A stretch of 63,864 bases of DNA, the filler included, from Octopus bimaculoides (Eukaryota): NCBI RefSeq assembly GCF_001194135.2. It is 6 parts of 6 records of this genome, joined end to end, with 100 filler letters (N's around TTAATTAATTAA, not from the genome) between each part and the next. Parts side by side here need not be neighbours in the genome. Positions count along the whole stretch, not along the records: positions 1 to 27,798 come from NC_068986.1; positions 27,899 to 36,094 come from NC_068983.1; positions 36,195 to 51,554 come from NC_068991.1; positions 51,655 to 53,786 come from NC_069004.1; positions 53,887 to 62,518 come from NC_068988.1; positions 62,619 to 63,864 come from NC_068982.1. The stretch is one strand, 5' to 3'. This document shows, piece after piece, positions 5,270 through 63,144 of the stretch. The first letter of the stretch is position 1, and each line of letters begins with the position of its first letter. The translations under genes and the position numbers were made by a program. Below the pieces are notes generated by a model, which was given only the letters and a program-made list of their open reading frames with translations, did no database searches and had not been told where the DNA came from.

Positions 5270-5421
5270 GTGGTGTAGACAGCAACTAGATGTATTAGTT
5301 TAACGCTCGGGAAGTGAAAAAGTTTTTAACGTTTCGAGCCTACGCTCTTCCACAGAAAGGAACACAGAAAGAAACAGGCAGAGGAAAAATAAAGAATGTG
5401 TAGTGGCTAGCGATCTATCGT
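5270..5421 (-). mobile_element. Penelope-like pLTR-type repeat with variant hammerhead motif (copy 1)
   Basis: Reverse-complement match to 10857-11018 and 31885-32040; hammerhead-like fold at 5323-5359. Confidence 0.65.
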
Positions 5422-8400
5422 GCATACGCATATATGCATTTGAAAGTATCTTTTTTCAGGGTTACACCGTCATTTTCTACGTTGTTTAATTTGAATCTCG
5501 GTTAACATGAACTGGTTTCTACAAATGTTGGAATAGTTTGCTTCTATTTTCCTTCTTCGTAGTGTCGAATTATCATTTAATGCTTCCAGCGTAGATGCGT
5601 CGTGTTTATATGAGTAACATAAAATATGTCAGTGTTTAAAAGAGATTTTAGTTATCTAAAAGAGGTGAACATATTTGAAACACAAAGAATATGAATAAGA
5701 ACCCAGTGTTTAGACCTTATATAATTTCCTTTTGGAAAGTTTAGACATATTGTGTTGTTCTTGAATTAATTGCCGATCAAAGTCAAAATGGTTGTATGAA
5801 ATGCGGTATCAGATTTGATTTTAAACGATCAGTTTTCTCTCCTTTTCTCTCCCCATTTATTGTATCTTTTTCATTATAAATTTTCCCATATAAAATACAA
5901 TGATTTATCATTTTATAGACAAATGGCCTAACTTCCGATATTTTCTACTTCGACGAATGTAAATGACGAACACGAAGCAAATTTGCTTAAACACCTCCAG
6001 TGGTCACTTTCTTGTTAATAAATTTTATGCGTTATCCTATGATGGATATATAATTGAAGATTCGCCAAGAAGTTCAGTGAGTTTAGCTAAATGGAACAGA
6101 CATCACTTGGAGCCTGAAAGTAATTCTGAGTTTAAAATATGCTTAAAGAGAAGTAATATAATACATTTTCTGTGAATAAATATATTGGTAGAGGTGGTTA
6201 TAATATCATTTAATACTAGATATAACAGTATTTTATTTTCCATATATGTTTCATATTGAACGTTTAATATTCGAGCTATTTCACATGCTATTACGCAATT
6301 AACTGTTTTTCATAATGTAGATGTCGTCACAGAATTATTTGAATTTTAAACAATTCTCTTTTCACTGTTCAATGCCACCACATATACATTTATTTATGTT
6401 ATTGAACCATTTATTTGTTATCAATTCGGTAAATTGCTGCGAGGCTTCACTTCCGCAGATAACGCTCAGCCAAGCAGAAACACGTCCGGAATTGTCTTCC
6501 GTAGTTACCGGGAAAAAATGAAAGATTTTAAGTCATTGCTTAGCATTATTTTTCTCTCACCGCACATAAGAGTCTAGTTTAGCTTTCTAATGTTGCATAC
6601 TTTAATTATAAACTTATCCACTTAACTATTTGGCAGAAATACTTCAGCATTATATAAAATAATAGTTATTTAAAGAAAGCTGATGTAAAACAGTTTAATC
6701 CTCGAATGAAAGTTCTATAAGCAATATGGGTACTAATATATTATTAATATATTCCTTTGTTGGGGGCCCTAAAATGTAATTGTCACATACGAAAAATATT
6801 AAATCGTTACACAGCGGGAAGTAATGGAACAAATTATATCGTCGAATGAGATGATTTGAGCGATTTAATTCAGAATCATTACTTTCTGATTTTAATGAGG
6901 TGAACTGTGCATTTAATCTCTATAAAATATGAACCTCTCGAATATTTGACTTAGTATACAGGCTTTTAAGTATCACCTTAATACGACCTATTGAACTTAT
7001 CAATATCATACTTCTATTAGGATTTTGAATTGAAATTTCGATTTTTCGGCCCTCTTTACTCAGCTCAAATTCCGCCGACGTTGATTTTCCATTGATACTT
7101 TCGGGTTCAAAGAAAATAAAAACAGTACCAGTTAAATACTAGGGTAAATGTAGACGACTAACCCCACAAAACTGATGAACCTGTGCCAAAATCTTAAACC
7201 ATTGTTATCTATGGTGGAGTGCTTACAATCTCTGGTGGCAACTATGACTATAATCATTTCATCCTTTTTAGAAAATTCAGCATCATTTAACATTTAAATT
7301 TTATAATCAATATATTACGAAGACACTATAAAATCAAAAGTGAAAAATTGATTATAAAGATGATTTGTTAGGAGAATAGAGAAAATGAAATTCATATCTG
7401 TATTCAGGATCTCTGAGAATGATGAAAGAATAAATGATATCATATCCGTTAGCATATGAAAGGAGAGCAAAGTTGAGCCACGGAATGAACCAACAGATTG
7501 AAGTTGATCTTCAATCAGAGGACGGATTACGACTACTGTATTATTACATTGTTTTTTTTTTGTTTCCTTAGAGAAAAATACCACGCAAAGCAGATTAAAG
7601 GATCGCGCTCTAGAAATTCTATTCAATTTCGTTGAACACATAAAATATTTAAAGAGGTGTTAAGACATGAGGCTGCTTGCGAAATAACTAAAAACAGGTT
7701 AAAAAGACAGCATGGATATATTATTTGAACCCATATTTCAGAATCACATATGCAGGATAAAAGAATTTAGAGCATTAACGTATGCAATGTAGGCCAATAT
7801 CTATTAAAGGATCAGCGGTTGTTATTTGAAACAGCTTTTTGTAAATTATGTGCCGTCAAATACAATAAATTAACCACTAGATAATCAGTCATGTTCATGC
7901 TGCTTTTCTTTTATTTGATTATTGGGCTCGTGTTAAAGGTGTATGATTCACAATCATAAGGCCATGCATACGACTCACAAACGAGACAACATTATTTAAA
8001 CACAGAAATTAATTTTCATGTTAACCCAGTCTTCTCAGCTCTAATGGGTACCATTCTGGCGCAAGCCGATTTCTTTTCAGCTATCACATACTCCAACAGT
8101 GGACCCTAAAACAACAAAATCCTGGAATGTCTTAACAAGTCATGTTCTCTGGTTATTGACGACCGGGTGTACATAAGTCTGAATATGATATCGTATGCTC
8201 AATATATCGGTAGATATTACGCTGGTGTTAAAATGACCGCAGAGTAATACTTGCGTTCTATGCAGGTGCAGATTTTGACGAGTTTTCATGCGCTGCAACA
8301 GAGTAACAGCTCATTTAACATTGACTCAAATAGTGTCTCATGGTATTTGAAAGGATTGGCTTACTCACTATTGAAATTGGAAAAAGATTACGCAAAAGCT

Positions 8401-9411
8401 TGCGTCTAAAAATAAAATGAAAAATAAAAAGGCAAAAAGAAGAAAAGAATCACAGCTAAGTATACTTCTTCAGGACCGCTGGGGTTTGTGTTTGTGAATG
8501 GTTTAACATCAATTTATCGTTATGGATAACATCTGTTGCCAAGAGAAATGTGCAGTCTCACTGTTTAGTTCTATTTTGAATTAGATGTAATGTTTGTGAC
8601 TGCACTCATAAATATCTTGCTGATAAGGTGTTTTGTTAATTGACAGAATACAGGTGGGTTTTATGATGGATATTGTAGATATAGGCTGGTTTGTTCTCTG
8701 TGTTTACCTGAGGTTGCTGTAAGCATCTTAATAGATGAATTTCTTTCTTTTTCTACTTTTTCTTGTTACTACATTGAGATAGCTTTGAAGATTTGCCTGT
8801 TTAGTGCGCGTGATATGTATGCAAGAATGAATATACATATTCATATGCATATGTGCATGTGTATACATACACACGCGCATATATACAAAAATGCATACAC
8901 ATATATATATACAACTACATATGTAAACGTACGTGTATGTATATATATATATATATATATTCACACGCGCATATATGTGTGTGTGTATTTAACTATAAAG
9001 AAAGTAGACACTCCATCATCTGCGACGACGATCATCACAGTTCTTTGATAAACTGAATTATCTACTCAATATAAGAGCGTGTAAATGATTATTCCACCGA
9101 ATTTTGTAAGTTGTATTTAATCTTGAGGGCGAGAATTAGTGCGAGAGATAGGTTTAAGGAGGACACATGGACTTTTTCCATATACTCCAGCCACCTAATT
9201 TCCATATATATCTCCAGCTTTCTTTAAATATATGTTTCTCTATGAAGATATGATTAAATCATTTCATGAATCGGCAATAATTGTGATCGAACTCAAGGCC
9301 TACAGAAGTTCGTAACAACCTTCTAAGACACATAAACCACATGAATTCTTTATACATACATTCATAATACAAATACACACAACGCACATACACCTATATA
9401 TACACACACAT

Positions 9412-10000
9412 ACATCATAATCAACATCGTCCTCGTTTAACGTCCACTTTCTGTGCTGGCATGGGTTGCAAGGTTTGATTGGAGCCTGGTGTAGCCTTCT
9501 CGCTTGCCAGTCCTCAATCTAATCTGGTAAGGTTTCTACAGCTGGATGCTTTTCCTAATGCCCACCACCACGAAAGTGTAAAGAATGCATTTTACGTGCC
9601 ACCAGCATGAGGGCCAGTCAGGCGGCACTGCATCGACCACGCTTGAATGATGAATTTTTACATGCCAGCGGCACGGGAGCCAGTCAGGCGGCACTGGCAA
9701 CAACCATACTGGAATGGTGCTTTTTACGTATCACCGGCACGGGAGCCAGTCAGGCGACACTCGAAACGACCCACGCTCGAAAGGTGCTTTTTACGTATCA
9801 CCGGCAGTGAAGCCGGCGAGGCGGCACTGGCAACAACCGCGCTCGAATTATCACCGGCACAGAAGCCAATCAGGTGGCACTGGCAACAACCACGCTCGAA
9901 TGGTGCTTTTTACGTATCATCGGCACTGGCAACAACCACACTAGAATGTTGTATTTTACGTGTCACCGGAACGGAACCAGATAGGCAGCACTGGCATCTT
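9412..10000 (-). mobile_element. Non-autonomous element with RTE-like 3' tail and hairpin minisatellite (family D)
   Basis: Tail is the reverse complement of 27960-28141 and 52560-52740; about 6-7 degenerate GCCAGT-N8-ACTGGC units at 9600-10000. Confidence 0.8.
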
Positions 10001-10419
10001 CATATATAGCATGTAAATAAGTAACAAGGAATCACAGATATCAATATATTACGGCCGTTTCATGCAGCTCCATTTAATCGATCAATGAAAATATTACATC
10101 AATTTCAAAGCAACCGCACTCCTCAGGCGCAGATGACCATACCATTTTAAAAACATTTACATCAATACTAGATAGCAAAATAATTATATTGTTTCCTTGT
10201 GTTAAAGCTTACTATTATTTAGAGAGTAGCAGAGGGAAATAGTCAGGGGGGGGGGCAAAATATAGAAGTGGTGACGTCGCAATTTATAGACTAGGCAAGG
10301 TGCCTCAATTTAAGTGCCCAATTGAGCTGGATATTAATTATTTACACCCACATATATATACATATATATGAATGCATATATGTATACGTACAAATATATA
10401 TATATATATATATATATAT

Positions 10420-10810
10420 CAGCAGCTTCCTTCCCAACCACATGGTTCCGGGTTCAGTCTTATTGTCTTATTGCGTGAAATGTTGGGGAAGTGTTTTATA
10501 CTATAGACCTGGGCCGATCAAATCCTTGTGGGTACATTTGGTAGACGGAAACTGAAGGTACTCCATTGTATAAATGTGTAAACATTTATGTGTGTGTGCT
10601 TGTGTCTATGTTTGTCACCCCACCTACCATAGCTTAACATCAGATGTTGGTGTGTTTACGTCCCCATAAACCAGCAGTTCGACAGAAAGGAGCAATATAA
10701 TAAGCACCGGGCTTACAAACAATAAGTCGATGGCTTGATTTCTTCGACTAACAGGTGGTGCTGCAGTATGACCACAGTGAAATGATTGAAACAACTAAAA
10801 TAATAAAATA
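10420..10810 (+). mobile_element. tRNA-derived SINE family A, diverged near-full copy
   Basis: Matches 40668-41133 (ccacatggttccgggttcagtc...ggtagacggaaactgaa...tgaaacaa). Confidence 0.8.
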
Positions 10811-10856
10811 TAAGAACACAGACACACACATATATGTGTGTGCGTTCTTATATTTA

Positions 10857-11018
10857 TGATAGATCGCTAGCCACTACGCATTCATTTTTTTTTCTCTCCC
10901 TTTTTTTGTGTTCCTTTCTGTGGAAGAGCATAGGGTCGAAACGTAAAAGACTTTCTCACTTCCCCAGCGTTATACTAATACACCTGTCTTCGTCTTTTTT
11001 TTTGTGAAATCTTCCCGT
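10857..11018 (+). mobile_element. Penelope-like pLTR-type repeat with variant hammerhead motif (copy 2)
   Basis: cttt-CTGTGGAA-gag catagg gtc-GAAACGTA-aaag at 10914-10949; homologous to copies near 5270 and 31885. Confidence 0.65.
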
Positions 11019-12067
11019 ATATATATATATATATATATATATNNNNNNNNNNNNNNNNNNNNNNNNNNNNNNNNNNNNNNNNNNNNNNNNNNNNNNNNNN
11101 NNNNNNNNNNNNNNNNNNNNNNNNNNNNNNNNNNNNNNNNNNNNNNNNNNNNNNNNNNNNNNNNNNNNNNNNNNNNNNNNNNNNNNNNNNNNNNNNNNNN
11201 NNNNNNNNNNNNNNNNNNNNNNNNNNNNNNNNNNNNNNNNNNNNNNNNNNNNNNNNNNNNNNNNNNNNNNNNNNNNNNNNNNNNNNNNNNNNNNNNNNNN
11301 NNNNNNNNNNNNNNNNNNNNNNNNNNNNNNNNNNNNNNNNNNNNNNNNNNNNNNNNNNNNNNNNNNNNNNNNNNNNNNNNNNNNNNNNNNNNNNNNNNNN
11401 NNNNNNNNNNNNNNNNNNNNNNNNNNNNNNNNNNNNNNNNNNNNATATATATATATATACAAACATATTTTGAAGCAGGCATATATACATATATGCATAC
11501 GCACATGGATGCCTATATACAATCATACATGTATATTACTTTTCCGAATACTGCACACATGAACCTTGTCATTGAATAGGAATTAAATAACTCGCAATAT
11601 TAGCGTAAACTCTCACAATATATCTCGTTAAGCTAATTAGCACTTATTAGCAGAGCTATCACACAGCTTCCTACCTCTCTGTATTTCTTCTCACATCATT
11701 TATCTTCATCGCATTTCTTTTTATCGACTGCTCTTCTTTTTTCTAATTCTTTCATCTTTTATCTTTTCCCAACAACTTTTCCTAATTTTTTATATTTTTC
11801 CAATTCTTCATTTCTTTATTTCTTTCTTTCTTTCTCTGTATTTATTTATGTATTTATTTGTTTGTTTGTTTATTTACTCCACGTAATTTCCTATCGACAT
11901 ATCTTTCTTTCCGTGCATTTTCCTGTATTTTTAAATTGTTACTTTCCTTTATTCTATCTTATCCAGATATCGAATATTTTCCCTATTTCTATCTATCCGT
12001 ATATCTATCCATGCACACACACACACATACGTAGATATATACATACAAAACGCATATATGCACACGA

Positions 12068-12099
<32 letters not shown>

Positions 12100-12873
12100 N
12101 NNNNNNNNNNNNNNNNNNNNNNNNNNNNNNNNNNNNNNNNNNNNNNNNNNNNNNNNNNNNNNNNNNNNNNNNNNNNNNNNNNNNNNNNNNNNNNNNNNNN
12201 NNNNNNNNNNNNNNNNNNNNNNNNNNNNNNNNNNNNNNNNNNNNNNNNNNNNNNNNNNNNNNNNNNNNNNNNNNNNNNNNNNNNNNNNNNNNNNNNNNNN
12301 NNNNNNNNNNNNNNNNNNNNNNNNNNNNNNNNNNNNNNNNNNNNNNNNNNNNNNNNNNNNNNNNNNNNNNNNNNNNNNNNNNNNNNNNNNNNNNNNNNNN
12401 NNNNNNNNNNNNNNNNNNNNNNNNNNNNNNNNNNNNNNNNNNNNNNNNNNNNNNNNNNNNNNNNNNNNNNNNNNNNNNNNNNNNNNNNNNNNNNNNNNNN
12501 NNNNNNNNNNNNNNNNNNNNNNNNNNNNNNNNNNNNNNNNNNNNNNNNNNNNNNNNNNNNNNNNNNNNNNNNNNNNNNNNNNNNNNNNNNNNNNNNNNNN
12601 NNNNNNNNNNNNNNNNNNNNNNNNNNNNNNNNNNNNNNNNNNNNNNNNNNNNNNNNNNNNNNNNNNNNNNNNNNNNNNNNNNNNNNNNNNNNNNNNNNNN
12701 NNNNNNNNNNNNNNNNNNNNNNNNNNNNNNNNNNNNNNNNNNNNNNNNNNNNNNNNNNNNNNNNNNNNNNNNNNNNNNNNNNNNNNNNNNNNNNNNNNNN
12801 NNNNNNNNNNNNNNNNNNNNNNNNNNNNNNNNNNNNNNNNNNNNNNNNNNNNNNNNNNNNNNNNNNNNNNNNN

Positions 12874-12908
<35 letters not shown>

Positions 12909-13766
12909 CATACATACGCGTGAAGTTGTATATATGTTAATATGTAAATATACATGTATACACGAACACACATACACACATATATGTGCGTGTGTGTGTA
13001 TATGTTTGTGTGTATATGTTTGTGTGTATGTAGGTAAGTATGTTTATACTTCCAACTGCAAGTAATTATATATCAAAATAAAAAATGTATGATGAGGTAC
13101 AAACATACACGAAACAAGTCTAGAACCGACAAAACAAAAATAACAGGTATACATACACATACATAAACATCTATTCACTAGTTTCCATGTTTAGATTAAC
13201 GCAGATTCAACGACCATTGCACAGGTGTTATCATATTCAAGAATCACTCAGTTGGAAATTACCACGTAAATCCTGGAGAGTTGGAAGCAATTAGTATGTG
13301 TTGGCAGCTGGTCAAGACAAATTGACCATTGCTACTGAACTTAGAGCATGGCCAGTTCTATAAATGTATTAAGTAGCACGGAACACATTATTTCTATCCA
13401 GAAACACTTCACTTCATACCAATTGAAACTATAACATTGACGCAATACTATTATTACTAACCTATTATTATTATTAATGTATTTTTTTTTTTTGTTGAAG
13501 ATTTGATTTTGCTTGTTTTCAAACTTTGCTGTTTGAAACATAAATAAACATAACATATGTATATATTTTTTATGCCTGGCTCATTGTTTCGGCATAAGGC
13601 CAACTGTACAATGCAGCCATCATTGAGGCTTTCCTGCATTAGTAATAGCAGCCAAATTTTCAATGAGATCTAAGTTTTCTCAAACGGAGGATACATACTC
13701 AAACACTACCATACTTACTGTGAAAAGACAGTCCTGATTGGGCTACATTTGGAGGTAGATTTGCAT

Positions 13767-18592: not shown

Positions 18593-19010
18593 AGAAGAAT
18601 TGCAATTAGTTCTTGGAGACTTTTATTTCGTGTTCTGTAGTTTGAGACAATTGTAGAGATTCTTTTCGCTAGGTTGACGGGGATGTTTGTCTTCGGGTGC
18701 TTTGGGTGACTGGAGGTGAACAGAAGGTATTGTTTGGAATCAGTTGGTTTGTAGTGGATATCAGTTTCAATGTTGGTGACTTTTTTCATAATAAGAATGT
18801 CAAGTAAAGGAAGTTGGTCTTGACTATATTCCATTGTAAATTAGATATGGCTACTGGCACTGTTGATTAAATTTTTGAAATCAATGAGTTGGTCGAGTGT
18901 GTGGGACCATCGGATGAGGCACTCATCCAAGTAGCGTTTCTAATTCTCCAACAGGTATTTGTGGAAAGACAGACCGTATTTAGATTTGGATGCTTCATAA
19001 ATTTCTTTTT
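18593..19010 (-). pseudogene. Penelope-like element reverse transcriptase fragment (palm/thumb)
   Basis: YLLEN*KRYLDECLI (decayed YxDD) followed by MEYSQDQLPLLDILI...IETDIHYKPTDSKQYLLFTSSHPKHPKTNIPVNLAKRISTIV, the typical PLE RT C-terminal motif; stops and frameshifts present. Confidence 0.85.
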
Positions 19011-20000: not shown

Positions 20001-20217
20001 AAGGCAGCGAGCTAGCAGAAACGTTAGCACGCCGGATGAAACGCTTAGCGGTATTTCGTTTGTCTTTATGTTATGAGCTCAAATTCCACCGGGGTCAACT
20101 TCGCTTTTCATCTTTTCCCGGTCGATAAATTAAGTACCAGTTGCGTACTGGGTCGATCTAATCGACTGGCCCCTTCCTTGCAAAATTTTAGGCCTTGTGG
20201 CTAGAGTAGAAAAAATA
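20001..20217 (+). mobile_element. SINE family B, full length
   Basis: gcagcgagctagcagaaacgttagcacg head, B-box-like gagctcaaattcc, gtcgataaattaagtaccagtt core, A-rich tail. Confidence 0.85.
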
Positions 20218-20219
20218 TA

Positions 20220-20765
20220 CGAGGGTGAGTCAAAAAGTAATGCCATTTTGTTTAAGACATGTATAATTACCAACACAGGAACATGTATCATACATCAAAA
20301 TGAAGCTGGTCCTCTGTTGATCACATCCCTACTTCTCAACATAGTCACTGTTTCTCTCAATAGCAGAGCATGTATCCCAGCCCTGTAAAATTCTCTTGAG
20401 TGTTCTTTGAGCCACCTCTTCACTACAGTTTTCACTTCCTCGTCACTAGAATAATGTTTGCCTCTCAAACCCTCTTTCATGGGCAGAAGAGATGATCCAG
20501 TGACGATGATAGTGCAGTGACGAGGAAGTGAAAACTGTAGTGAAGAGGTGGCTCAAAGAACAGTCAACACAATTTTACGGGGCAGGGATACATGCTCTCA
20601 TTCGAAGGTGGAACATTGCTATTGAGAGAAACGGTAACTATGTTGAGAAGTAGGGATGTGACCCACTACAGAGGACCAGTTTCATTTTGATGTATGATAC
20701 ATGTTCCTGTGCTGGTAATTATACCTGTCCTAAACAAAATGGCATTAATTTTTGACTCATCCTCG
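20220..20765. mobile_element. Foldback mariner-derived MITE made of two inverted transposase 3' ends
   Basis: TA on both sides; TIR cgagggtgagtcaaaaagtaatgcc; arms 20220-20447 and 20516-20765; each encodes mariner C-terminal peptide (SDEEVKTVVKRWLKE..FY.AGIHAL). Confidence 0.9.
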
Positions 20766-20967
20766 TATATTACAAGATACCGAAGAAGATTAGGAAGGCT
20801 GAAGACATTTGGTTGTGCCGTTACTTTTCATTTGGTGCTTATGAAATTAGTCCTGTCAGTAAGCCAATACATTCCGCAGTTCTATGTCTAACTCATTAAA
20901 CACCTACAAGGAACATCTCGGCACTCCTCTGAAAAAAAACCCAATTAACTCAGAAGTTTGGGTTTGT

Positions 20968-23520: not shown

Positions 23521-24765
23521 TGTGTGTGGAAAGAGAAAGAGGGCGAGAGATATGCATGAGGTGATCTGAATTTCATTTGACGCTTGGTTAGCTCGGCCAC
23601 ATCACACTTAATGTTTTCCATCAAGTGTTTGCGGCAAGGCTGCTCGCCGTTTCTTGTTGTGTCATAACCAGGATGAAGTCAATCTACCTTAATAATGCTG
23701 CAGAAGCCTAAATCTTGTGACCCTCGTCTGCTTTGAAAATATTTGTTTAATTTACTGTTAACATGTTTAATGCATGGACCGTACAAAAGCTAATCAGAAA
23801 TAATTATGCGTTAACGAAGAATTATTATTAACCAATAATTAATATTACATGTGATTTGGTACAATCTGTATCTTCGTGAAAATGACCTCCGATAGTTATT
23901 TATGGTAGGTTACTGTCTGATTTCAAACCCTGGTGAGCTTAAAACTTAGCTGTTAAAATTACTTCTAACTGTAGTACAAGGAGAAAAATTTCGAAGGCAG
24001 AGGTTAAGTCGATTATATCCACTGCTCCCAATAATTGACAAATACATATTTATCGGCATCCGAAGAATGAAAGGGAAAATCGAATTCGGCCGAATTTTAA
24101 ACGTAGAATGTTGAGTCAGAGACATGTCGTTGGGGAATGTTGTCAAGGGACCTAACGATTAAACCGTGTCGCCGTCTTATTTAAGGTAATAAAATAAAGT
24201 AATACACCTCTGTAATATATGAAAAAAGCCTGAAAGGTATAGCCGGACAAATATCATGAAACAATCCATCCGACATGATAAAGAGGCAACATTCATAAAC
24301 AAACAGAATAAGAGTAAAAGTGAGCAAATAAATTGTACTGTTCCACTTATGAAATTGTACTTATGTTAATAATTGATAGTCTATATAAATACATACATAA
24401 ACACATATCTATACATACATATACACATAAAGGTGTATGCATGTACGTATGTATGTATATAAATGTATATGTATATATATATATAGTTCAAATTTACAGA
24501 AAACGAAGGACGTCGACAGATGAAGGAACAAGAAACAGTTGTATTAAGTCTGATGCTCGAGAAGAATTGGAAATATCTCTACATATCTCTGTATTATAAT
24601 TCACTGGTCTGTTCATCCGTTATTCTTTAGTAAGTTAGAGAGATGGAGGTGGAGTGAGTGAGGGGTAGAGTAAAAGCGAGAGAAAGAAGGGGGGATGTGA
24701 GTAGAGAAGAAAGAAGGGGTGAAGAGAGAGAGATTAAAACGGTGAGAGAAAAGAGGGAGAGACAA

Positions 24766-24990
24766 GTGTTAACAACCACGAGCATATGGCGTAGTGGTTA
24801 ACAGCGCGGGCTACTAACCCCAATATTCCGAGTTCAATTCCAGGCAGTGATTTGAACATCGAAAAATACCTTTGGAATAAGAACTCAGGTTCGAAATTTT
24901 CCCAAGACACCTGATGAAGGCTGGAGTTTATATCAGCCGAAACGTTGTGTTAACAACAAACATGATGAGGACAAATATCCGTGAAATGTA
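24766..24990 (+). mobile_element. tRNA-headed repeat carrying a hammerhead ribozyme
   Basis: A box TGGCGTAGTGG (24787-24797), B box GAGTTCAATTCC (24830-24841), hammerhead at 24906-24951. Confidence 0.75.
24906..24951 (+). ncRNA. Minimal type I hammerhead ribozyme motif
   Basis: Stem I gacac/gtgtt, core CTGATGA plus extra A, stem II ggctg/cagcc, GAAA, palindromic stem III AACGTT, predicted GUU cleavage after 24946. Confidence 0.75.
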
Positions 24991-39279: not shown

Positions 39280-39385
39280 ATCACCCGATGAGGCACATCT
39301 GCATCGCCGGATGCTCCTGAATCAGTTGTTGAGTGTCCCACTCGTGAGGGATCGATGCTAAATGTGTCGAAACAATTGTCGTGAT
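39280..39385 (+). ncRNA. Type I hammerhead motif with U4C core and enlarged stem II
   Basis: Stem I atcac/gtgat, CCGATGA, stem II ggcacat/atgtgtc enclosing gcatcg/cgatgc, GAAA, palindromic stem III ACAATTGT, GUC site after 39380. Confidence 0.75.
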
Positions 39386-41335: not shown

Positions 41336-41367
41336 GGCGAAAGTGAAGAATACGTACACCCGGTGTT

Positions 41368-41427
41368 TAGGGTTAGGGTTAGGGTTAGGGTTAGGGTTAG
41401 GGTTAGGCTAGGGTTAGAGGTTAGGGT
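41368..41427 (+). repeat. Interstitial (TTAGGG)n tract, about 10 units
   Basis: ttagggttagggttagggttagggttagggttaggctagggttagaggttagggt. Confidence 0.95.
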
Positions 41428-45003: not shown

Positions 45004-45242
45004 TATCTCCAGTCTGATGAAGGTTAGTGACTGAATTGTTGCAGTACCTACCAGGGTCTGGATAATTGAAAACATGTTTGTGACCAACCGTTCCGGTTTT
45101 TCAATCCTGCTTTTATAGATCGGCTTTTCACGCCTAAATCTAAACGAGCAATTTAAGTAGTAAACAGTGTATAAACATATACATACATGTGTGTACACAC
45201 ACATACACAAACACACACATATACACACACAAATACACAAAC

Positions 45243-45297
<55 letters not shown>

Positions 45298-45762
45298 NNN
45301 NNNNNNNNNNNNNNNNNNNNNNNNNNNNNNNNNNNNNNNNNNNNNNNNNNNNNNNNNNNNNNNNNNNNNNNNNNNNNNNNNNNNNNNNNNNNNNNNNNNN
45401 NNNNNNNNNNNNNNNNNNNNNNNNNNNNNNNNNNNNNNNNNNNNNNNNNNNNNNNNNNNNNNNNNNNNNNNNNNNNNNNNNNNNNNNNNNNNNNNNNNNN
45501 NNNNNNNNNNNNNNNNNNNNNNNTATCTCCAGTCTGATGAAGGTTAGTGACTGAATTGTTGCAGTACCTACCAGGGTCTGGATAATTGAAAACATGTTTG
45601 TGACCAACCGTTCCGGTTTTTCAATCCTGCTTTTATAGATCGGCTTTTCACGCCTAAATCTAAACGAGCAATTTAAGTAGTAAACAGTGTATAAACATAT
45701 ACATACATGTGTGTACACACACATACACAAACACACACATATACACACACAAATACACAAAC

Positions 45763-51654: not shown

Positions 51655-52740
51655 CGACACATGAAATGCACCATTTTGGGCGTGGCCGTTGCCAGTGCCG
51701 CCTGGCTGGCCTTCGTGAGATTTTCGAGCAAGATCGTTGCCAGTGCCCCTGGACTGGCTCATGTGCGGGCGACACATGAAATGCACCATTTTGGGCGTGG
51801 CCATTGCCAGTGCCGCCTGGCTGGCCTTCGTGGAATTTTCGATTGAGATCGTTGCCAGTGCCCCTGGACTGGCTCTTGTGGGGGTGACACATGAATTTTT
51901 CGAGCGAGACCGTTGCCAGTGCCCCTGGACTGGCTCATGTGCGGGCGACACATGAAATGCACCATTTTGGGCGTGGCCATTGCCAGTGACGCCTGGCTGG
52001 CCTTCGTGGAATTTTCGAGTGAGATCGTTGCCAGTGCCCCTGGACTGGCTCTTGTGCGGAGCGGTCATAGGATTTTCAAGCGAGATCGTTGCCAGTGCCC
52101 CCGCACTGGCTCTTGTGTCGGTGACACATGAAATTTTTCGAGCGAGATCGTTGCCAGTGCCCCTGAAATGGCTCTTGTGCGGGGCTGTCATAGGATTTTT
52201 GAGTGAGATCATTGCCAGTGCCCCTGGACTGGCTCATGTGCGGGCGACACATGAAATGCACCATTTTGGGCGTGGCCGTTGCCAGTGCCGCCTGGCTGGC
52301 CTTCGTGGGATTTTCGATCGGGATCGTTGCCAGTGCCCCTGGACTGGCTCTTGTGCGGAGCCGTTGTAGGATTTTCAAGCGAGATCGTTGCCAGTGCCCC
52401 TGGACTGGCTCTTGTGCGGGTGACACATGAAATTTTTCGAGCGAGATCGTTGCCAGTGCCCCTGGGCTGGCTCTTGTGCGGGTGACACATGAAATGCACC
52501 GTTTTGAGCGTGGCCGTTGCCAGTACCGCCTGACTGGCCTTCGTGCGGGTGACACGTAAAAGCACCCACTACACTCTCTGAGTGGTTGGCATTAGGAAGG
52601 GCATCCAGCTGTAGAAACTCTGCCAAATCAGATTGGAGCCTGGTGTAGCCATCTGGTTTCACCAGTCCTCAGTCAAATCGTCCAACCCATGCTAGCATGG
52701 AAAGCAGACGTTAAACGATGATGATGATGATGACGATGAT
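51655..52740 (+). mobile_element. Family D element: 15-unit hairpin array plus RTE-like tail
   Basis: Units of 48-67 bp each begin (g/a)ttgccagt; tail 52560-52740 nearly identical to 27960-28141, ending in (GAT)n. Confidence 0.9.
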
Positions 52741-53786: not shown

Positions 53787-53886
53787 NNNNNNNNNNNNNN
53801 NNNNNNNNNNNNNNNNNNNNNNNNNNNNNNTTAATTAATTAANNNNNNNNNNNNNNNNNNNNNNNNNNNNNNNNNNNNNNNNNNNN

Positions 53887-54520: not shown

Positions 54521-54781
54521 CGTATATATATACATACATATATATATATTTGTCTTGCTTCTATATGTTGATTCCCTGACGATGAATATATGTGCAATTC
54601 CAGCACCTCTTACTTCTTTGGAGAAGAGTACATATATTTTGAAACATATGTAGGAATTAAAGGAACTTTTATTTATATGCATTTTGCTCCATTTATTGTT
54701 ATTATTCATATACACATATATATATATATGCTTTTGGTGCAAATGGTTTTGTTATGCGACACCGTATAACACAATCATGTA

Positions 54782-55094
54782 AATAATAATAATAATGGTA
54801 TTTTTATATAAGCTTAAATTTTATGGCGTTCACCGTGCAATGACTAAAGAAAATAGTCTAATAACGAGGCATATAAGCACTCGACAGAAAAAACAAGGCT
54901 TTTCTATCCATGTGTGAAGGTAACACAAACAGTCATGTTAACAAAGGGATGTGGATTCGCGTCCCACGCGGATGGGAAAGCATTCTTTTTTCTGTCGAGG
55001 GCTTATATGCTCGGTTATTATGCTAGTTTCATTAGTCATTGCACGGTGAACGGAATAAGCTTTGAGCTTATATAAGAATACCATTATTATTATT
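54782..55094. mobile_element. MITE-like element with about 130-bp inverted arms
   Basis: 54782-54915 is the reverse complement of 54963-55094 (cgttcaccgtgcaatgactaa, gcatataagc, ctcgacagaaaaaa shared); (AAT)n ends. Confidence 0.8.
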
Positions 55095-55145
55095 GACAGG
55101 ATTGTGAAAGACGGCACCGAATAATAAAGCCATTCGCATCGAAAG

Positions 55146-55184
<39 letters not shown>

Positions 55185-55441
55185 TGTGGTTGATTTCTTT
55201 GACCAATGACAGTGCTCCACCATGGCTGCAGTCACATGACTGAAACAAGTAAAGCAATAAAAATCTATGCCATTTTAATCCTGAGCAAGGCCGGGTATCT
55301 CTGCTAATGTATGATAAATTCAAAACAACCAAATAAATAAGCAAATCACTTGACAGAGTAATTTGAACGGAAAAGGTTTCAGGCAAATTTCATTTTCGTC
55401 TAAATAAACAGAATACCCATAAAGGTTACATTTCATTTTAA

Positions 55442-55668
55442 CTCTTTTGTTGACGCCATTTCTGTTGTTGAGATGATTCTCTGGGTTTCTTTCAATTATT
55501 TTAAATATAACAAAGAATTTAGCAAAATAACTTAGTTAACATTAAGCTAGTGTTAGGAACATAAATTGTGACTAAGGTTTGGTGGAAGATTTTAATTCAG
55601 AACTTAAGAAAACAAGACATTTGTACTCAGAGCCAGAGTCAGTTTCAGCCAGGTTGGTATCAAAAGGG
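55442..55668 (-). mobile_element. piggyBac-type MITE
   Basis: TTAA at both flanks, end ggtatcaaaaggg|TTAA; reverse homolog of 57021-57240. Confidence 0.7.
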
Positions 55669-56270
55669 TTAATACAAAGTAACGATTTTTTTTTTCACTT
55701 ACTTGTTCTGTTGAGAGAATAAATCTGGAAATATTCAGATATGGCTGCATGATTAAGAAGCTTGCTTTGTGACCACATGGTTTCAGGTTCAATTTCCTAA
55801 AGAATATCCAAGGTTACTTACTTCTCCTTGCAGCAACATCCACCCAGGGTGGGTTGAGCCAGCTCCGACCAACAAGTTATTTCATGTTCGGAGTTTCAGC
55901 GTGAATGCAAGTTCACATGTGGTCCCTGGACATATGTATACACACTTTGGGATAGTGTGGTTTGTAGCAGTCCATTTTGCCATTGATTATTGACCATAAC
56001 AGAGAACTTGCTGACCAAGTCACAGCCAATTATCAGAGCAGATGTCACCGGGGTTTGAAGGGGGTTCTAGAGACATCTTTAACAAAGACTAAGTAGGGGT
56101 GCTGGTTTAGTCGCTGACAACCCAACCATGCAACAGGTTGTACTGGATTCCATGTTCCCAGTTGCATTCATGAGACTTAATACAAAAAGAGCATTATCAA
56201 TGTAAATTGAATTGATTTTGACTAAGGTTTGAAATTTAGGTTGCATATCAGGTTTATTTTTAAAAAAATC

Positions 56271-56950
56271 AATAACTGTATCACAATACTTGCCAATTTA
56301 TAAGCAACAATTGGCAAAACCTGACAATCACTGTATCACAATTTATAAGCAACAATTGGCAAAACCTGACAATCACTGTATCACAATTTATAAGCAACAA
56401 TTGGCAAAACCTGACAATNNNNNNNNNNNNNNNNNNNNNNNNNNNNNNNNNNNNNNNNNNNNNNNNNNNNNNNNNNNNNNNNNNNNNNNNNNNNNNNNNN
56501 NNNNNNNNNNNNNNNNNNNNNNNNNNNNNNNNNNNNNNNNNNNNNNNNNNNNNNNNNNNNNNNNNNNNNNNNNNNNNNNNNNNNNNNNNNNNNNNNNNNN
56601 NNNNNNNNNNNNNNNNNNNNNNNNNNNNNNNNNNNNNNNNNNNNNNNNNNNNNNNNNNNNNNNNNNNNNNNNNNNNNNNNNNNNNNNNNNNNNNNNNNNN
56701 NNNNNNNNNNNNNNNNNNNNNNNNNNNNNNNNNNNNNNNNNNNNNNNNNNNNNNNNNNNNNTGGCAAAACCTGACAATCACTGTATCACAATTTATAAGC
56801 AACAATTGGCAAAACCTGACAATCACTGTATCACAATTTATAAGCAACAATTGGCAAAACCTGACAATCACTGTATCACAATTTATAAGCAACAATTGGC
56901 AAAACCTGACAATAACTGTATCACAATTTATAAGCAACCTGACAATCACT
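56271..56950. repeat. 45-bp minisatellite (array partly in gap)
   Basis: Unit ATTTATAAGCAACAATTGGCAAAACCTGACAATCACTGTATCACA; at least 7 copies visible. Confidence 0.95.
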
Positions 56951-57020
56951 GATGTTTGCTGAAACCTTTCGTATTTTCTGTTCTGAGTTAAATTATTCAC
57001 TATTTTATAAATGTGTTTAA

Positions 57021-57240
57021 CCCTTTTGATACCAACCCAGCTGAAACTACCTCTGGGTCTGTAGTACAAATGTCTTGTTTTTATAAGTTCTGAATTAAAA
57101 TCTTTCATCAGATCTTAGTCACAATTTATATTCCTAACATTAGCTTAATGATTAAGTTATTTTGCTAAATTTTTTGCTATATTTAAAATTAATTGAAAGA
57201 AACACAGTACACCCCCAACAGAAATATGGTAACAGAAGGG
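57021..57240 (+). mobile_element. piggyBac-type MITE, 220 bp
   Basis: TTAA|CCCTTTTGATACCA ... TGGTAACAGAAGGG|TTAA (12/14 TIR match); a truncated third copy starts at 57259. Confidence 0.8.
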
Positions 57241-58542
57241 TTAACATAATTAATTTAACCCTTTTGTTATAAACCCAGTTGAAACTACCTCTGGGTTTGT
57301 AATACAAAAGTCTTGGTGGTCCATTGTGATAGGTATAAACTCCAAGCAATGTAAAATGTAGCCCAGACCATGTTTACCAGCATGAACATCAGACTTCAGA
57401 AAGTAGTTAACCATTTAATGGTTTTAATAAATTTATACAGAAAAAGTAAGCATTATACCGTTCAGTATAAATAAAAGTCAACTTTATTATATTTAAGCCA
57501 TTATTTTTTCTGCAAAAACCTATTCTGACATTAAATGAGTCAACTTCTAGTACGAATATTTACAGTTTGTACGTCTTTTTCAAAAAAATTCTGGAAATGA
57601 TCTATTCATGTAATTTATACACCCCCTAAAGTCTATTTCTATGTTTGCAGAAAAAAGTACATGGGTTTTTACAGTCTGTTGATTCTACTCTGTGTTATAC
57701 CTCAGAAGAAATCAGCTTCTCTACAAACATTTTACTTACCAAGGCCAGAGAGGGACCCTGGGTACTGATAAATAACTTATGTTGATGAAATGATGAGCAT
57801 ACACTTATCAAATTTAATGGCGTAAAGAGAAAACCATTATTTTTCAGTTTAAGACCATCTCTGACTGAAGGGTTCCTTTAGCAGAAGTCACTTATAGCAC
57901 CCTAGGGTAATCTTTGCTGCCTGACCCCTGCTTCCAAATAATCATTACTAAAAAATTCACAGACACTTACCTGTTTGGCAATTCTCTTTCGTCTAACATT
58001 TATGGATTTCAATAGAGACAATGACTTCAAACTGCACCCCACCACCTAACACACACACACACTAACACGTAGGCTGCACATTTTGTCTCTTACCTTCTAT
58101 CACCAATATGTCCGAGTCATTTTATCTGCTACTCCTCAATCCAAATGGCTCTCTAAGCAATACTCTTGTAGACATAGCTGCTACTTATGCTGTATACATT
58201 CCACTTAACAAAAGCAGCACCCAGACTCCCCATCGCATTGAGGAAGTCTCATGATTGTTCTAAACCAGAGGCTGGTAAAGTTGTCAACATTGACCCCTGG
58301 GTAGAAGTCTGTGTGGCAATCTAAGGGCTGCGATAAACACCTGAAACAATTTTGAGCATTAAGGCTGCTGAAACACCAGCAAACTGAACCTGGAAGAGTG
58401 TAAGTAATTTCAGGTTAAAATCCATTCATTTCACTGAATTCACAGCCAAACACCAATACAATGACTGGTATTCACTGAATATATTTCACATTCAGTATTT
58501 CAACTGTTTCAATATGAATTTTTGTTCTTCTTCTTGCCAGTG

Positions 58543-58806
58543 CCGTCTAATTGGCCCTTGTGCCGCTGGCATGTAAAAAGCACCATTCAAGCGTAGTCAA
58601 TGCCAGTACTGCTTGACTGGTTCTCGTGCTGGTGACACGTGAAAAGCACCATGTAAAAAGTGGTTGGTGTTAGGAAGGTCATCCAGCTGTAGAAACCTTG
58701 CCAGGTCAGATTGGAGCCTGGTGCAGCCTTCTGGCTTGCCAGTTCTCAGTCAAACCATCTAACCCATGCCAGCATGGAAAGCAGATGTTAAACGATGATG
58801 ATGATG
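58543..58806 (+). mobile_element. Family D element, diverged
   Basis: Two hairpin-like units plus RTE-like tail ending in (GAT)n. Confidence 0.85.
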
Positions 58807-59422
58807 TCATTCAATTTCTTTCTTTCTTATTAAAAAGCAGTAATGACACAAAAGAAAGGAGTCATTGATTTTAAATCAAGAAATATTTTTATTAATTGTA
58901 GTTTTTAATTTTATTTTAGAAATTTACATGATGTGGATTGATAAGGTAGTAAAGATTTCATGAAGGGGCCAATGACAAAAGAAGTTTTCTGACCCCTGTT
59001 CTAAACTAATAATACAACAGCTTTTTTTTTTTTTTTTTCGATTATTCTGTCTCTGTTTTTGCCAAATTCCAACCAGTGGAATTGTGACAGTCTTCCAATC
59101 TTGTGAAGACCGACTTGTTTAACTCTGCCAGCAACCAGCCAATATCTCAAAAATAATCGGGGTCCATAAATGTCTGAAATAGCAATGCCTGGAATATTTC
59201 TGTACAACACACTTCATGTGACACTACAGAGATGTCATGTCTTGGAGTATTTTGTAAAAAAAAAAAACACTAACACTTTTGACATTAACAAAAAAGTTTT
59301 AACACAAGAAACATCAAACCATGGGACCCATTGAGTGGCTTTCTCATCTCATTGGCCACAAGTTTTGTTAAACCTGTTTCAGGCTCTCTCTAATCCAATT
59401 CTATCAACACAGTGAAGGGACA

Positions 59423-59746
59423 TGGCTGGGGTTTCGGGTATTTGCCTCAAGATTATAAGGTCATGAGTTCAATTCCCAGCAGTGCATTGTATCCTTGAGC
59501 AAGACACTTTATTTCACATTGCTTCAGTCCACTCAGCTGGCAAAAATGAGTTGTACTTGTATTTCAAAGGGTCAGCCTTGTCACATTCTGTATCTGGATG
59601 AATCTCCCTGAGAACTATGTTAAGGGTACATGTGTCAGTGGTGTACTCAGCCACATGCATGTTAATTTCATGAGCAGGCTGTTCCATTGATTGAGATCAA
59701 CTGGAACTTGCATTGTTATAATCAATGGAGTGCCACTTTCTATCAG
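59423..59746 (+). mobile_element. tRNA-derived SINE family C
   Basis: B box gagttcaattccc followed by ccttgagcaagacactttatttcac core. Confidence 0.7.
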
Positions 59747-60769
59747 CACGACTCTCCCACAAAGGCTAGATGTCTCCAACTATTCTGTTTTTATCCATGG
59801 GAACATGCCTGGCTAAAGGGAAATATCTTCCTTGGAAGCAGGTAAGGTTTGGTGACAGGGAAGGCATCTGCCCATAGAAAATCTGCCTTGGGATATTCCA
59901 TCTATGCCATGCAAGTATGGAAAAGTGGACAGTACAATGAGGAGAGTGAGATCAATGATCAGCTCAAGGTGTCTCCTCTCTGCATACATTGTTACCATTC
60001 CCATGAAGACAACGGCACCTTAACTGACTCCGTAATCTTCACCACCTGAGTGCCATCTGTATGTAGTCTAGGTATTTCTCACTGGATACATACCACTTCC
60101 ATGAACAAAATCTTCAATAACACATTATATTGGGGCCACGAGAGACAATCTAATCTTTTGAATAAGGCCCTGTCCACATTTTCTCCTTAGAGATACTGAC
60201 CCTGACCAGAAGAAATTCAACCTGGACATCATTTGTATCGACCACATCAATTTAGAAAGGTCTGCACAGAATATGAATACTGGATCTGGTCTCCAAACTA
60301 AATTTTAAAAATAAGTTATAAATTCAAAACCATGTTCACCATTTAACATGTGAAACCTTAAACATCTAAAAATCAAAACCTTTCAATCAATATTGAGTTG
60401 CCACGTAAGAGCTGTAAATTACAACAGCTTGCAGATTACAATAAAAATCTATATTTAATATATGATTTTTATCTGTCAATAAAAATCTATATTTAATATA
60501 TGCTTTATTACTGGAAATACAGGAGGGAACATGTTGGTTATTCTGATTTCATAAGGACACACAAATATATAGCAATCAATGTATGTAGTTGTTGCTAGCT
60601 GGTTTTTTTTTTCGTAATAATTAGGTAATACTTGTATATTGTGAATATACAAGTTGGTGGGAAAATTCTGTTCATACCAAAAAGAACTTTCTAGAAAAAC
60701 GTCCTGTGTACGGATATACTTTATGTCTGCTTGTAGAGAGCAAGTTATTTCTTGTAAGTTGTGAATAAA

Positions 60770-61195
60770 ATACTGGCTTTAAATATTGGCACACAAGGTC
60801 AGTAATTTCGGAGGAAGGGCTTACTTGATAACAACCGCAGTGTTCAAGTGGTACTTATTTTATCAGCCCCAAAAGGATGAAAGGCAAAGCTGACCTTGGC
60901 AGAATTTGAACTCAGAATGTAAAGTTAAATGGAATACCACAAAGCATTTAGCCTGGTATGCTAATGATTCTACCAGCACACTACTATGATGGGCTCAAAT
61001 TTCAGCAAAGGGTCAAGAATTTGGGAGGGAAGGCTAAGTCAATTACATTGACCCCAGTACTCAACTGGTATTTATTTTATTGATCCCAGAAAGTTGAAAT
61101 GCAAAGTAGGCCTCAGTGAAATTTGAACTCAGAATGTAAAGAGAGATGAAATGCTTGCAAAGCATTTTAGCCAGAGCGCTAACGACTCTGCCATC
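60770..61195 (-). mobile_element. Two tandem diverged SINE family B copies
   Basis: aaggcaaagctgaccttggcagaatttgaactcagaa and gcaaagtaggcctcagtgaaatttgaactcagaa repeated in the same orientation. Confidence 0.8.
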
Positions 61196-61342
61196 TTTCC
61201 CCCTTCATTTGTTAATGACATTGGAATTCTAGAAACCCTGAATCAGCCAAGTGGTTGTGGTTTCAGCCCCACTGTATAGTACCTTGGGCAAGTGTTGTCT
61301 ACTATAGATCTGAGCCAACTAATGAGTGAATTTGGTAAATCA

Positions 61343-61685
61343 TCATCATTGTTTACTGTCTGCTTTCCATGTTGGCATGGGTTGGAAGGTTTGACTGAGG
61401 ACTGGCAAGCTAGGACAGGGTGAGGAGGTTGGCATCAACCATGATCGGATGGCACTTTTTATATGCCACTGGCATGAGAACCATTCAAGATGGAGCTGGC
61501 ATCGGCCACGTTTGGATGGTGCTTTTTACATATCACTGGCACAGGGGCCAGTTGGGGTGAGGGAGCTGGCATCAACCACATTCAGATGGTGTTTTTTACA
61601 TGTCACCGGCACGGGGAGCCATTCAGGTAGCACTGGCAACGATCGACACATGAATGGTGCTTATTGCATGCCACCAGCATGGGAG
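61343..61685 (-). mobile_element. Family D element, old and rearranged
   Basis: catcatcatt...ttccatgttggcatgggttgg tail plus decayed units. Confidence 0.7.
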
Positions 61686-62286
61686 TCAGAAACTACAAAT
61701 TCCTTTGCTTATATGTGTGTGAAGACTTATACTGCAATTCCATCAAAAAGCAGAGTGTTGGATGGTAATGTTTGGAGATATTCTTTGGATGGTAATGTTT
61801 TGCTGCTTTTGAAGATTAAGTGGAATGAAAATGTTCTGACATGAAAAACAGTTAAGAGTTAACAGGAAGGGCAATCAGCAGTAAAAACAAAACCATAATA
61901 ATTGCTATTCATCTAACTCATGCTAGCATGGGAACATGGACATAATACAAACAAATAACACAATTATACTTTTGAAAGGTTGTTTACAATCTGCCCCTTC
62001 TTTTACTTTAGCTTTTTCAAAGTTTTATTGACTCAAAGACCTAAAACTTCTGACTCTGTTATTTTGCTTTTAGCATCAAATATTCTTTTCTATTTTTTTT
62101 CAAGGTTTATTCTGGCAGAATGAGTCATGCTTATGACCTTCACAAGTATTTTTTTTTGCACATTTGCTTTGTATTATGTGGTTATTTAAAAAAGTAAACT
62201 AATGCCACAATATCAAAGTGGTGCTAATGGGAAGGTCATTTTGTCAATGAACACACATGCACTGGTTCTATTTTACTTCTTTCTAA

Positions 62287-62518
62287 TCATCATCATCATC
62301 ATCATCGTTTAACGTCCGCTTTCCATGCTAGCATGGGTTGGACGATTTGACTGAGGACTGGTGAAACTGGATGGCAACACCAGGCTCCAGTCTAATTTGG
62401 CAGAGTTTCTACAGCTGGATGCCCTTCCTAACGCCAACCACTCAGAGAGTGTAGTGGGTGCTTTTACGTGTCACCCGCACGAAAACGGCCACGCTCGAAA
62501 TGGTGTCTTTTATGTGCC
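62287..62518 (-). mobile_element. Family D element, 5' end lost in gap
   Basis: Near-identical reverse complement of 27899-28141. Confidence 0.9.
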
Positions 62519-63085
62519 NNNNNNNNNNNNNNNNNNNNNNNNNNNNNNNNNNNNNNNNNNNNTTAATTAATTAANNNNNNNNNNNNNNNNNNNNNNNNNN
62601 NNNNNNNNNNNNNNNNNNTACATATATATATATATATATACATATATATATGTGTGTGTGTGTGTGTGTATGTTGGCTGCTCAAGAGTGGGCAGCAACAA
62701 AAAACCTATTTGTATATGCTCCACAAGGGAAAACAAGGAACATAGTTTACAATGAGGTGTTATAATCACAACAGCAAGAAAGTATGTACATGATCACCTT
62801 CTTTTACGAAACTTCATTGACTTTCATATATTTATATTGATATACATATATATACGTGTGTTTGGGTGCGTGTGTGTATATACATCTCTCTATATAAAGA
62901 TGATGCGTAGTCTAGACGGCGTTTGTAGATTTCATTATTCTCTTTAATCCGGGCAACGCCGGGTATTTCTGCTAGTATATACTATAATTTAGGGTATCTA
63001 AGAGATACCAACGTCGTAGGTTCGTATATGTAAGTATTCCCTTGTTGTATATATATATATTTCTATTTATGTGCTATCTGAATAT

Positions 63086-63144
63086 ATTCCACAGATGAAG
63101 GCAGGGCATTTCTTATGCAGAACCAGAAATCCGGGAACTGGAAT
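63086..63144 (+). ncRNA. Decayed hammerhead-like motif with CAGAUGA core
   Basis: Stem I attcca/tggaat, CAGATGA-A, stem II gg..gcat/atgc..cc, GAAA, ATCCGGGA; U16.1 appears mutated to A. Confidence 0.4.

What the first reader, a model, noticed from the sequence alone, without database searches (positions are those of the whole stretch)
5323..63144. Several unrelated repeats each carry a dimer-type minimal hammerhead with a different non-canonical core
Seen: eight motifs share the order stem I / core / stem II / GAAA / short stem III (self-complementary or nearly so) / NUH / stem I. Cores are CUGAUGA (24911), CCGAUGA (39285), UUGAAAA (31009-31003, minus), CUGUGGA (three copies of one family, one broken) and CAGAUGA (24517, 63092, both decayed). 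Known: Penelope-like elements carry minimal type I hammerheads that cleave as dimers through palindromic stem III (Cervera and de la Pena 2014; Lunse et al. 2017). Inference: this genome hosts several parallel PLE-dependent non-autonomous families that sample core variants at positions 3/8, 4 and 6. A PLE RT remnant (18593-19010) is in the same window.
Basis: partly seen in the sequence, partly recalled or inferred. Interest (0 to 1): 0.75.

Follow-up and report, generated by a model that had tools for sequence, protein, structure and literature searches.

The report
Penelope hammerheads with family-fixed variant cores
Seven of the eight motifs belong to repeat families that carry small hammerhead-shaped RNA motifs of the kind known from Penelope-type jumping genes, and three protein-coding families carry a family-wide change in the normally fixed core (one, A6 to U, not found in the papers searched) that likely slows self-cutting, which is untested.

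Summary
Partly confirmed. Seven of the eight motifs are copies of hammerhead-bearing repeat families; 24517 is not a hammerhead but the antisense of a truncated tail. Three variant cores are family-wide: A6U (5355, 10918, 31928; 2,267 exact genome matches with U6, 41 with A6), U4C (39285) and U3-A8 (31009). CAGAUGA at 63092 is private decay of a canonical core. The two families with no linked ORF (24911, tRNA-like head; 63092, ~500-bp permuted unit) keep canonical cores. U3-A8 (schistosome PLEs) and U4C (a viroid) are published; natural A6U was not found in my searches, but Lünse et al. could not be read. Two A6U subfamilies differ at only N7 and H17 over 36 nt while flanks diverge, suggesting selection on the fold and cut site. 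Cleavage is untested; most copies were made from uncut RNA. A canonical hammerhead at 54576 was missed. This scan already noted A6U and the tRNA-headed family on other DNA.

The parts
5324..5359 (-). A6U minimal hammerhead (core CUGUGGA 5355-5349, extra A, stem II GAGC/GCUC, stem III ACGU, H17 U) in the 3' end of a Neptune-type PLE; matched copy about 5270-5419
   Evidence: endonuclease frame upstream on the same strand in L030, L022, L012
10914..10949 (+). Second A6U copy, one G-G mismatch in stem II, H17 A
31924..31945 (+). Third A6U copy, stem II and GAA deleted; cannot fold
24488..24580 (-).
24781..24850 (+). tRNA-like head with A-box-like (24787-24797) and B-box-like (24830-24841) sequence, boxes read by eye against the recalled consensus
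   Evidence: not called by ARAGORN or Rfam
24906..24951 (+). Canonical-core minimal hammerhead (CUGAUGA, stem III ACGU) of the tRNA-headed, non-coding, fold-back family
30977..31012 (-). U3-A8 hammerhead (UUGAAAA, stem III ACCGGU, extra C before G12) at the 3' end of a second Neptune-type PLE
39280..39385 (+). U4C hammerhead (CCGAUGA, long structured loop II, stem III ACAAUUGU) at the 3' end of a PLE with Penelope/Poseidon-like motifs (clade label recalled)
63086..63144 (+). Decayed copy of a canonical-core hammerhead (family CUGAUGA, extra A before G12, stem III AUCCGGGAU) in a ~480-540-bp non-coding permuted unit
54568..54660 (+).
   Evidence: motif parsed in 20 of 20 loci
18594..19004 (-). 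Decayed RT fragment of a third Neptune-type PLE, whose family end carries its own U3-A8/ACCGGU hammerhead (not present in this window)

Best explanation
The motifs are the terminal-repeat (pLTR-type) hammerheads of several independent repeat families: the three variant cores (A6U, U4C, U3-A8) lie at the 3' ends of protein-coding Penelope-like elements, and the canonical cores at 24911 and 63092 belong to short non-coding families likely copied by Penelope enzymes. Shown: family membership, family-wide cores, linkage to ORFs, fixed 3' ends at microsatellites, variable 5' ends, fold-back pairs. Inferred mechanism: the element's RT-endonuclease primes near the 3' end of a mostly uncut transcript and stops early, scattering hammerhead-bearing stubs. 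Two hammerheads pair through the self-complementary stem III (modelled only) and cut slowly, probably helped by the element's protein. Cutting is not needed for each insertion, so weak cores such as A6U and U4C can spread, but the fold and a non-G cut site are still maintained in the master copies.
For: A6U: 2,267 exact matches with U6, 41 with A6, 164 with C/G6. 21 of 24 copies picked by their tail alone show a hammerhead and all 21 have U6. Two subfamily majorities match at 34 of 36 hammerhead positions, differing only at N7 and H17, against 28 of 50 upstream and 71 of 85 downstream. Read and contig depth at 85% likeness peaks over the hammerhead in 4 of 4 runs. One sister-lineage copy (L252) has canonical A6 and a compensatory G-C for C-G in stem I. 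ORF linkage: A6U 3 of 30 loci (GIY-YIG Pfam E 0.0004, below cut-off); U4C at least 12 of 30 loci, 3 of them the queries; U3-A8 hammerhead 585-873 bp downstream of the endonuclease end in 6 of 15 loci. No collinear PLE ORF in 30 loci of 24911 or 24 of 63092. In the 24911 family all 7 loci with an inverted hammerhead have the ~30-bp tail on exactly one arm, the PLE signature described in 10.1101/2021.04.23.441226. Only 2 of 27 distinct A6U-family copies start within -1..+6 of the cut site. In Anolis PAc the hammerhead needs the protein to cut and is dispensable for insertion in vitro (PMC11167929).
Against: No cleavage data. No compensatory stem change inside the A6U family, so fold conservation there is invariance; covariation is seen only between families and in one sister copy. 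A6C gives kobs below 0.1/min and U4C lowers activity (PMC3088659). The double-hammerhead fold is above the cofold minimum in all 5 window copies tested, by 2 kcal/mol (31009) to 16 (5355); the 39285 value is not comparable because its loop was left unpaired. RNA reads show no pile-up of ends, though the libraries are unstranded and could hardly show one. Absence of an ORF for 24911 and 63092 rests on +/-1.5 kb around 54 loci and on queries from three PLE families only. No intact full-length element or true tandem pLTR pair was recovered.
Confidence: 0.7

Rival explanations
1. The A6U (and perhaps U4C) hammerhead is catalytically dead and is kept as a protein-binding or RNA-pairing structure, or as an overlapping promoter or priming signal.
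For: Position 6 changes are damaging in tested hammerheads. Most copies include sequence upstream of the cut site. Cleavage is dispensable for PAc insertion in vitro. The dimer fold of 5355 is weak (-6.7 against -22.8 kcal/mol).
Against: Subfamily differences fall on N7 and H17, and H17 takes U, A or C but not G as a majority state, the pattern expected if cleavage is still selected; G5, G8, G12 are kept.
Confidence: 0.3
2. One reading: parallel non-autonomous PLE-dependent families each sample a different core.
For: Most copies are short and ORF-less; 24911 and 63092 do look non-autonomous.
Against: The three variant cores are contiguous with PLE ORF ends on the same strand; the non-coding families are canonical; 24517 is spurious.
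Confidence: 0.07
4. The motifs are chance matches in AT-rich repeat DNA.
For: 24517 and probably 28673 are such cases.
Against: 5 hits against 0.17 in shuffles; stems paired in 22-29 of 29 relatives per position in unrelated families.
Confidence: 0.02

Closest known systems
Minimal type I hammerheads in pLTRs of metazoan PLEs (Cervera and De la Peña 2014, PMC4209133; parts 1-2 of 4 read, one of two supplements searched)
   Same: Short stem I, extra base between 9 and 10.1, palindromic stem III, many unrelated families per genome, mostly single truncated copies; U3-A8 reported there in Schistosoma mansoni.
   Different: Their consensus is CUGANGAH; family-wide A6U and U4C are not in the parts read. 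An extra base before G12 (31009, 63092, 54576) is not in their consensus line.
PAc Poseidon element of Anolis (PMC11167929; passages read)
   Same: PLE with hammerhead and one-ended tail; uncut RNA is the main template.
   Different: PAc has C3-G8 and was assayed; the cores here are variant and unassayed.
Natural core variants A6C (phage Bcep176), U4C (viroid), U3-A8 (PMC3088659 section 8 and passages; PMC7151607 passages)
   Same: Changes at the same positions; low but detectable activity; A6C favours Mn2+.
   Different: Those are rare single cases in phage or viroids; here U6 is the majority state of a lineage with thousands of copies.
Schistosome Sm-alpha/Sj-alpha SINE-like elements (second-hand, PMC6765202 section 11 part 2)
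   Same: Pol III-type promoter joined to a hammerhead, as in the 24911 family.
   Different: Sm-alpha occurs in tandem multimers; 24911 copies are dispersed or fold-back with a PLE tail.
Animal non-LTR retrozymes (PMC7229834 passages; 10.64898/2026.07.22.740005 part 1 of 5)
   Same: Non-coding, hammerhead-bearing units proposed to derive from PLEs; 63092 has a permuted ~500-bp unit.
   Different: No locus with two complete same-strand hammerheads was seen; redundancy is partial (3 of 24 loci) and inversions are commoner (8 of 24).

Membership tests
PLE minimal hammerhead (Cervera 2014) | Core CUGANGA or U3-A8 variant | tested here: met
   Met for 24911, the 63092 family, 54576 and 31009
PLE minimal hammerhead (Cervera 2014) | Core CUGANGA in the 5355 and 39285 families | tested here: not met
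   U6 in 2,267 of 2,472 exact matches; C4 commonest in 39285 relatives. These are variants, not strict members
PLE minimal hammerhead (Cervera 2014) | Extra base between 9 and 10.1 | tested here: met
   29/29, 29/29, 29/29, 23/23 in A6U, 24911, 31009, 63092; absent in 39285
PLE minimal hammerhead (Cervera 2014) | G10.1-C11.1 pair next to G12 | tested here: inconclusive
   Met in A6U, 24911, 39285; an extra base separates it from G12 in 31009, 63092, 54576
PLE minimal hammerhead (Cervera 2014) | Palindromic stem III/loop 3 | tested here: met
   ACGU, ACCGGU, ACAAUUGU, AUCCGGGAU self-duplexes of -1.7 to -9.9 kcal/mol; 0-3 bp possible as monomer
PLE minimal hammerhead (Cervera 2014) | Self-cleavage as a dimer | not testable with these tools
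   Only folding energies and fragmented RNA-seq
Endonuclease-positive PLE | RT followed by GIY-YIG endonuclease, hammerhead downstream on the same strand | tested here: met
   U3-A8 family RT and endonuclease; A6U endonuclease end only; U4C C-terminal part only, no Pfam hit; RT-remnant family
Endonuclease-positive PLE | 5' truncation, inverted copies, microsatellite targets, one-ended tail | tested here: met
   Second inverted copies in 11/30 (24911), 8/24 (63092), 5/30 (39285), 4/30 (31009), 2/30 (A6U) loci; tail on one arm in 7 of 7; (TA)n ends
Endonuclease-positive PLE | Intact ORF between two pLTRs | tested here: inconclusive
   None recovered; loci are short and gapped; two close same-strand pairs are duplicates across assembly gaps
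Non-LTR retrozyme | Tandem units with at least two complete hammerheads | tested here: not met
   63092: partial redundancy of period 478-539 in 3 of 24 loci, no complete tandem
Non-LTR retrozyme | Circular RNA | not tested
   No reads were laid on the 63092 family
Sm-alpha-like SINE | Pol III promoter boxes followed by a hammerhead | tested here: inconclusive
   Box-like head upstream in 14 of 30 loci, read by eye; no ARAGORN or Rfam tRNA call; Pol III transcription not shown
Sm-alpha-like SINE | Tandem multimers | tested here: not met
   No head-to-tail hammerhead units in 30 loci

The most novel reading that the evidence does not exclude
A6U is a working natural hammerhead core that cuts only when two copies pair and the element's own RT-endonuclease assists, so autonomous Penelope elements carry protein-gated, weakened cores while their non-coding passengers, including a tRNA-promoter SINE copied by Penelope instead of LINE enzymes, must keep canonical cores.
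Probability: 0.22. Interest if true: 0.72.

Novelty: new variant of a known kind. Interest (0 to 1): 0.42.

Why it matters
The role of hammerheads in Penelope-like elements is open. A lineage that spread through several subfamilies with U at a normally fixed core position, beside a sister with A6, is a ready natural pair for asking whether these elements need to cut their RNA. Family-wide A6U and U4C cores are missed by descriptors built on CUGANGA, so animal hammerhead counts are likely too low. The tRNA-headed fold-back family would be a SINE-like passenger of Penelope enzymes.

Tried and rejected
Rfam scan: no hammerhead among 150 of 197 matches shown, microsatellite noise only. CAGAUGA as a core class: rejected. 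Linking the window's RT remnant to its motifs: no match in 14 extended loci. A6 or C6 master subfamilies: pattern counts suggested them, but on a 62-row tree built without positions 6-7 (8 of 70 rows dropped for gaps) C6 needs 9 changes for 10 rows (221 of 500 shuffles as low) and A6 12 for 17 (11 of 500), so they are mostly scattered mutations. 192-196-bp tandem pairs: duplicates across assembly gaps. RNA: no RNA holder listed on record; raw reads from three runs of one study, organism B, unstranded, show the A6U family in transcripts but no end pile-ups, and two of those runs show the same for 24911; this is no test of cleavage. Pfam missed the RT and PDB gave nothing; the Atlas gave RVT_1/GIY-YIG clusters at 0.96. 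The 54576 block was mis-registered by one base and is replaced. tblastn hits from query L108_2 in unrelated loci are discounted as likely due to a repeat insertion inside that query. Lünse et al. is not held, so its variant list is unseen; supplement file 1 of PMC4209133 was not searchable; either could already hold A6U or U4C. Literature searches; 'hammerhead ribozyme' + 'A6U' gave only a twister paper.
Full report
Setting. The window is a pack of six stretches from a 2.34-Gb animal genome, likely an octopus; that label is recalled from its repeats and matches earlier scan notes, it comes from no call on this genome. The motifs fall on contigs C6, C3, C11, C8 and C2.

Observation. A descriptor scan gave 5 window hits against a mean of 0.17 (max 2) in 60 shuffles, and 14 hits in 529 kb of evenly spaced genome samples, so hammerhead-like motifs are common genome-wide. 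Rfam listed none among the matches shown. Each motif was then searched in the genome and its best 24-30 loci aligned; these sets lean toward the query, which matters least for 39285 and 63092 (relatives 83-88% identical) and for 24517 (tail-only query).

A6U family (5355, 10918, 31928). Copies end at a fixed point before (TA)n and are variably cut at the 5' side. In 3 of 30 loci the shared upstream sequence runs into a CxxPRCxxC linker and GIY-YIG frame on the same strand (Pfam E 0.0004, below cut-off), the Neptune-type layout described in 10.1101/2021.04.23.441226 (passages). Exact 30-base matches number 2,267 with U6, 41 with A6 and 164 with C or G (93 C and 7 G among the first 100). On a tree built without positions 6-7, A6 and C6 copies are scattered, so U6 is the master state across subfamilies. 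The CUGUGGA/U17 and CUGUCGA/C17 subfamilies differ at 2 of 36 hammerhead positions, N7 and H17, while flanks match at 28 of 50 and 71 of 85; all 21 hammerheads among 24 tail-selected copies have U6. In reads of organism B and contigs of organism E, depth peaks over the hammerhead, N7 and H17 vary, and position 6 is not among the 40 of 109 differences shown. One sampled sister copy, L252, shares the downstream tail but has canonical A6 and a compensatory pair in stem I. Only 2 of 27 distinct copies (33 rows, 6 duplicates) start within -1..+6 of the cut site, so most insertions came from uncut RNA; this test followed a lead from note e1-10280645.

24517. The relatives match only the stretch that is the reverse complement of the A6U tail. 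The copy starts near the predicted cut site, which one decayed copy cannot distinguish from chance. It is not a hammerhead.

31009. UUGAAAA in 26 of 29 relatives, with an extra C/U before G12. Searching with the endonuclease end found upstream in one locus returned RT and GIY-YIG frames, with this hammerhead downstream in 6 of 15 loci. U3-A8 is published for schistosome PLEs. The window's RT remnant belongs to another Neptune-type family whose end carries a different U3-A8/ACCGGU hammerhead with U opposite U at the base of stem II (4 loci); none of five window families matched its 14 extended loci.

39285. CCGAUGA is the commonest core (12 of 29; CUGANGA 4 of 29) with an 8-bp stem II. Upstream lies a PLE C-terminal frame with WFNP, CSC-CPL and YIGQT-like motifs (Penelope/Poseidon label recalled; no Pfam hit) in at least 12 of 30 loci, 3 being queries. 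C4 cores also occur in other sampled families (L233, L245, L253). U4C is known from a viroid, with reduced activity.

63092. Canonical in 20 of 23 relatives; the window copy carries three private damaging changes. The unit shows direct redundancy of period 478-539 in 3 of 24 loci, inversions in 8 of 24 and no collinear ORF: a likely non-autonomous, retrozyme-like passenger that fails the tandem criterion.

24911. Canonical in 28 of 29. A tRNA-like head plus (AAT)n precedes the hammerhead in 14 of 30 loci, 17 counting inverted arms; 7 of 7 fold-back loci carry the tail on one arm only; no collinear ORF. BLAST found 8 matches in 529 kb, against 2 for A6U and 1 for 31009, which would scale to roughly 35,000, 9,000 and 4,000 copies, order of magnitude only. 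It resembles Sm-alpha but with PLE insertion marks.

Mechanism. Stem III allows 0-3 pairs in a monomer and 4-8 between two copies; double-hammerhead folds are stable but not the minimum. PLE minimal hammerheads cut poorly even as dimers; PAc cuts only with its protein and does not need cutting to insert in vitro. I therefore take slow, dimeric, probably protein-assisted cutting under weak but real selection as most likely (0.7 with the family assignments), and a dead but retained fold as the main rival (0.3). The contrast of variant cores in coding families and canonical cores in non-coding ones rests on three or four against two families and is a lead only; 54576 is canonical and unassigned.

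Novelty. The kind is known, as are U3-A8 and U4C as natural variants. Family-wide A6U was not found in seven literature searches, but Lünse et al. and one Cervera supplement were unseen. Earlier notes of this scan report A6U in octopus and shark DNA and the tRNA-headed family in octopus; they are unchecked and not independent support. Verdict: new variant of a known kind, interest 0.42.

Noticed in passing
   Followed up: partly
L045, L055, L056 (upstream of the hammerhead) and L060: A different retroelement sits inside the (AAT)n linker of 24911-family copies; its translation resembles the C-terminus and RT of R4/Dong elements, which target (TAA)n (resemblance recalled).
   Followed up: partly
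L197, L200, L202, L204 (3' end of the window's RT family): U3-A8 hammerhead with ACCGGU stem III and U opposite U at the base of stem II, after a ~1.5-kb AC-rich 3' region.
   Followed up: partly
L221, L233, L245, L246, L253, L264, L010: Further unrelated hammerhead families in sampled DNA, several with C4 cores or an extra base before G12.
   Followed up: no
families of 31009, 63092, 54576: An extra base before G12 faces the extra base after A9, equivalent to an A-C, A-A or U-U mismatch closing stem II; U-U at this place is reported in PMC3088659.
   Followed up: partly
window 20214-20771, 30610-30904, 4715-5057, 55418-57266: Long inverted-repeat elements, likely MITE-like.
   Followed up: no
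window 9430-9996, 51655-52721, 58531-58806, 61339-61689: A 60-66-bp satellite-like repeat family shared by several stretches.
   Followed up: no
window 41367-41427: Interstitial (TTAGGG)10 array next to a repeat copy.
   Followed up: no
window 45004-45163 and 45524-45683; L309, L310: Identical sequence on both sides of assembly gaps, which mimics tandem copies.
   Followed up: yes
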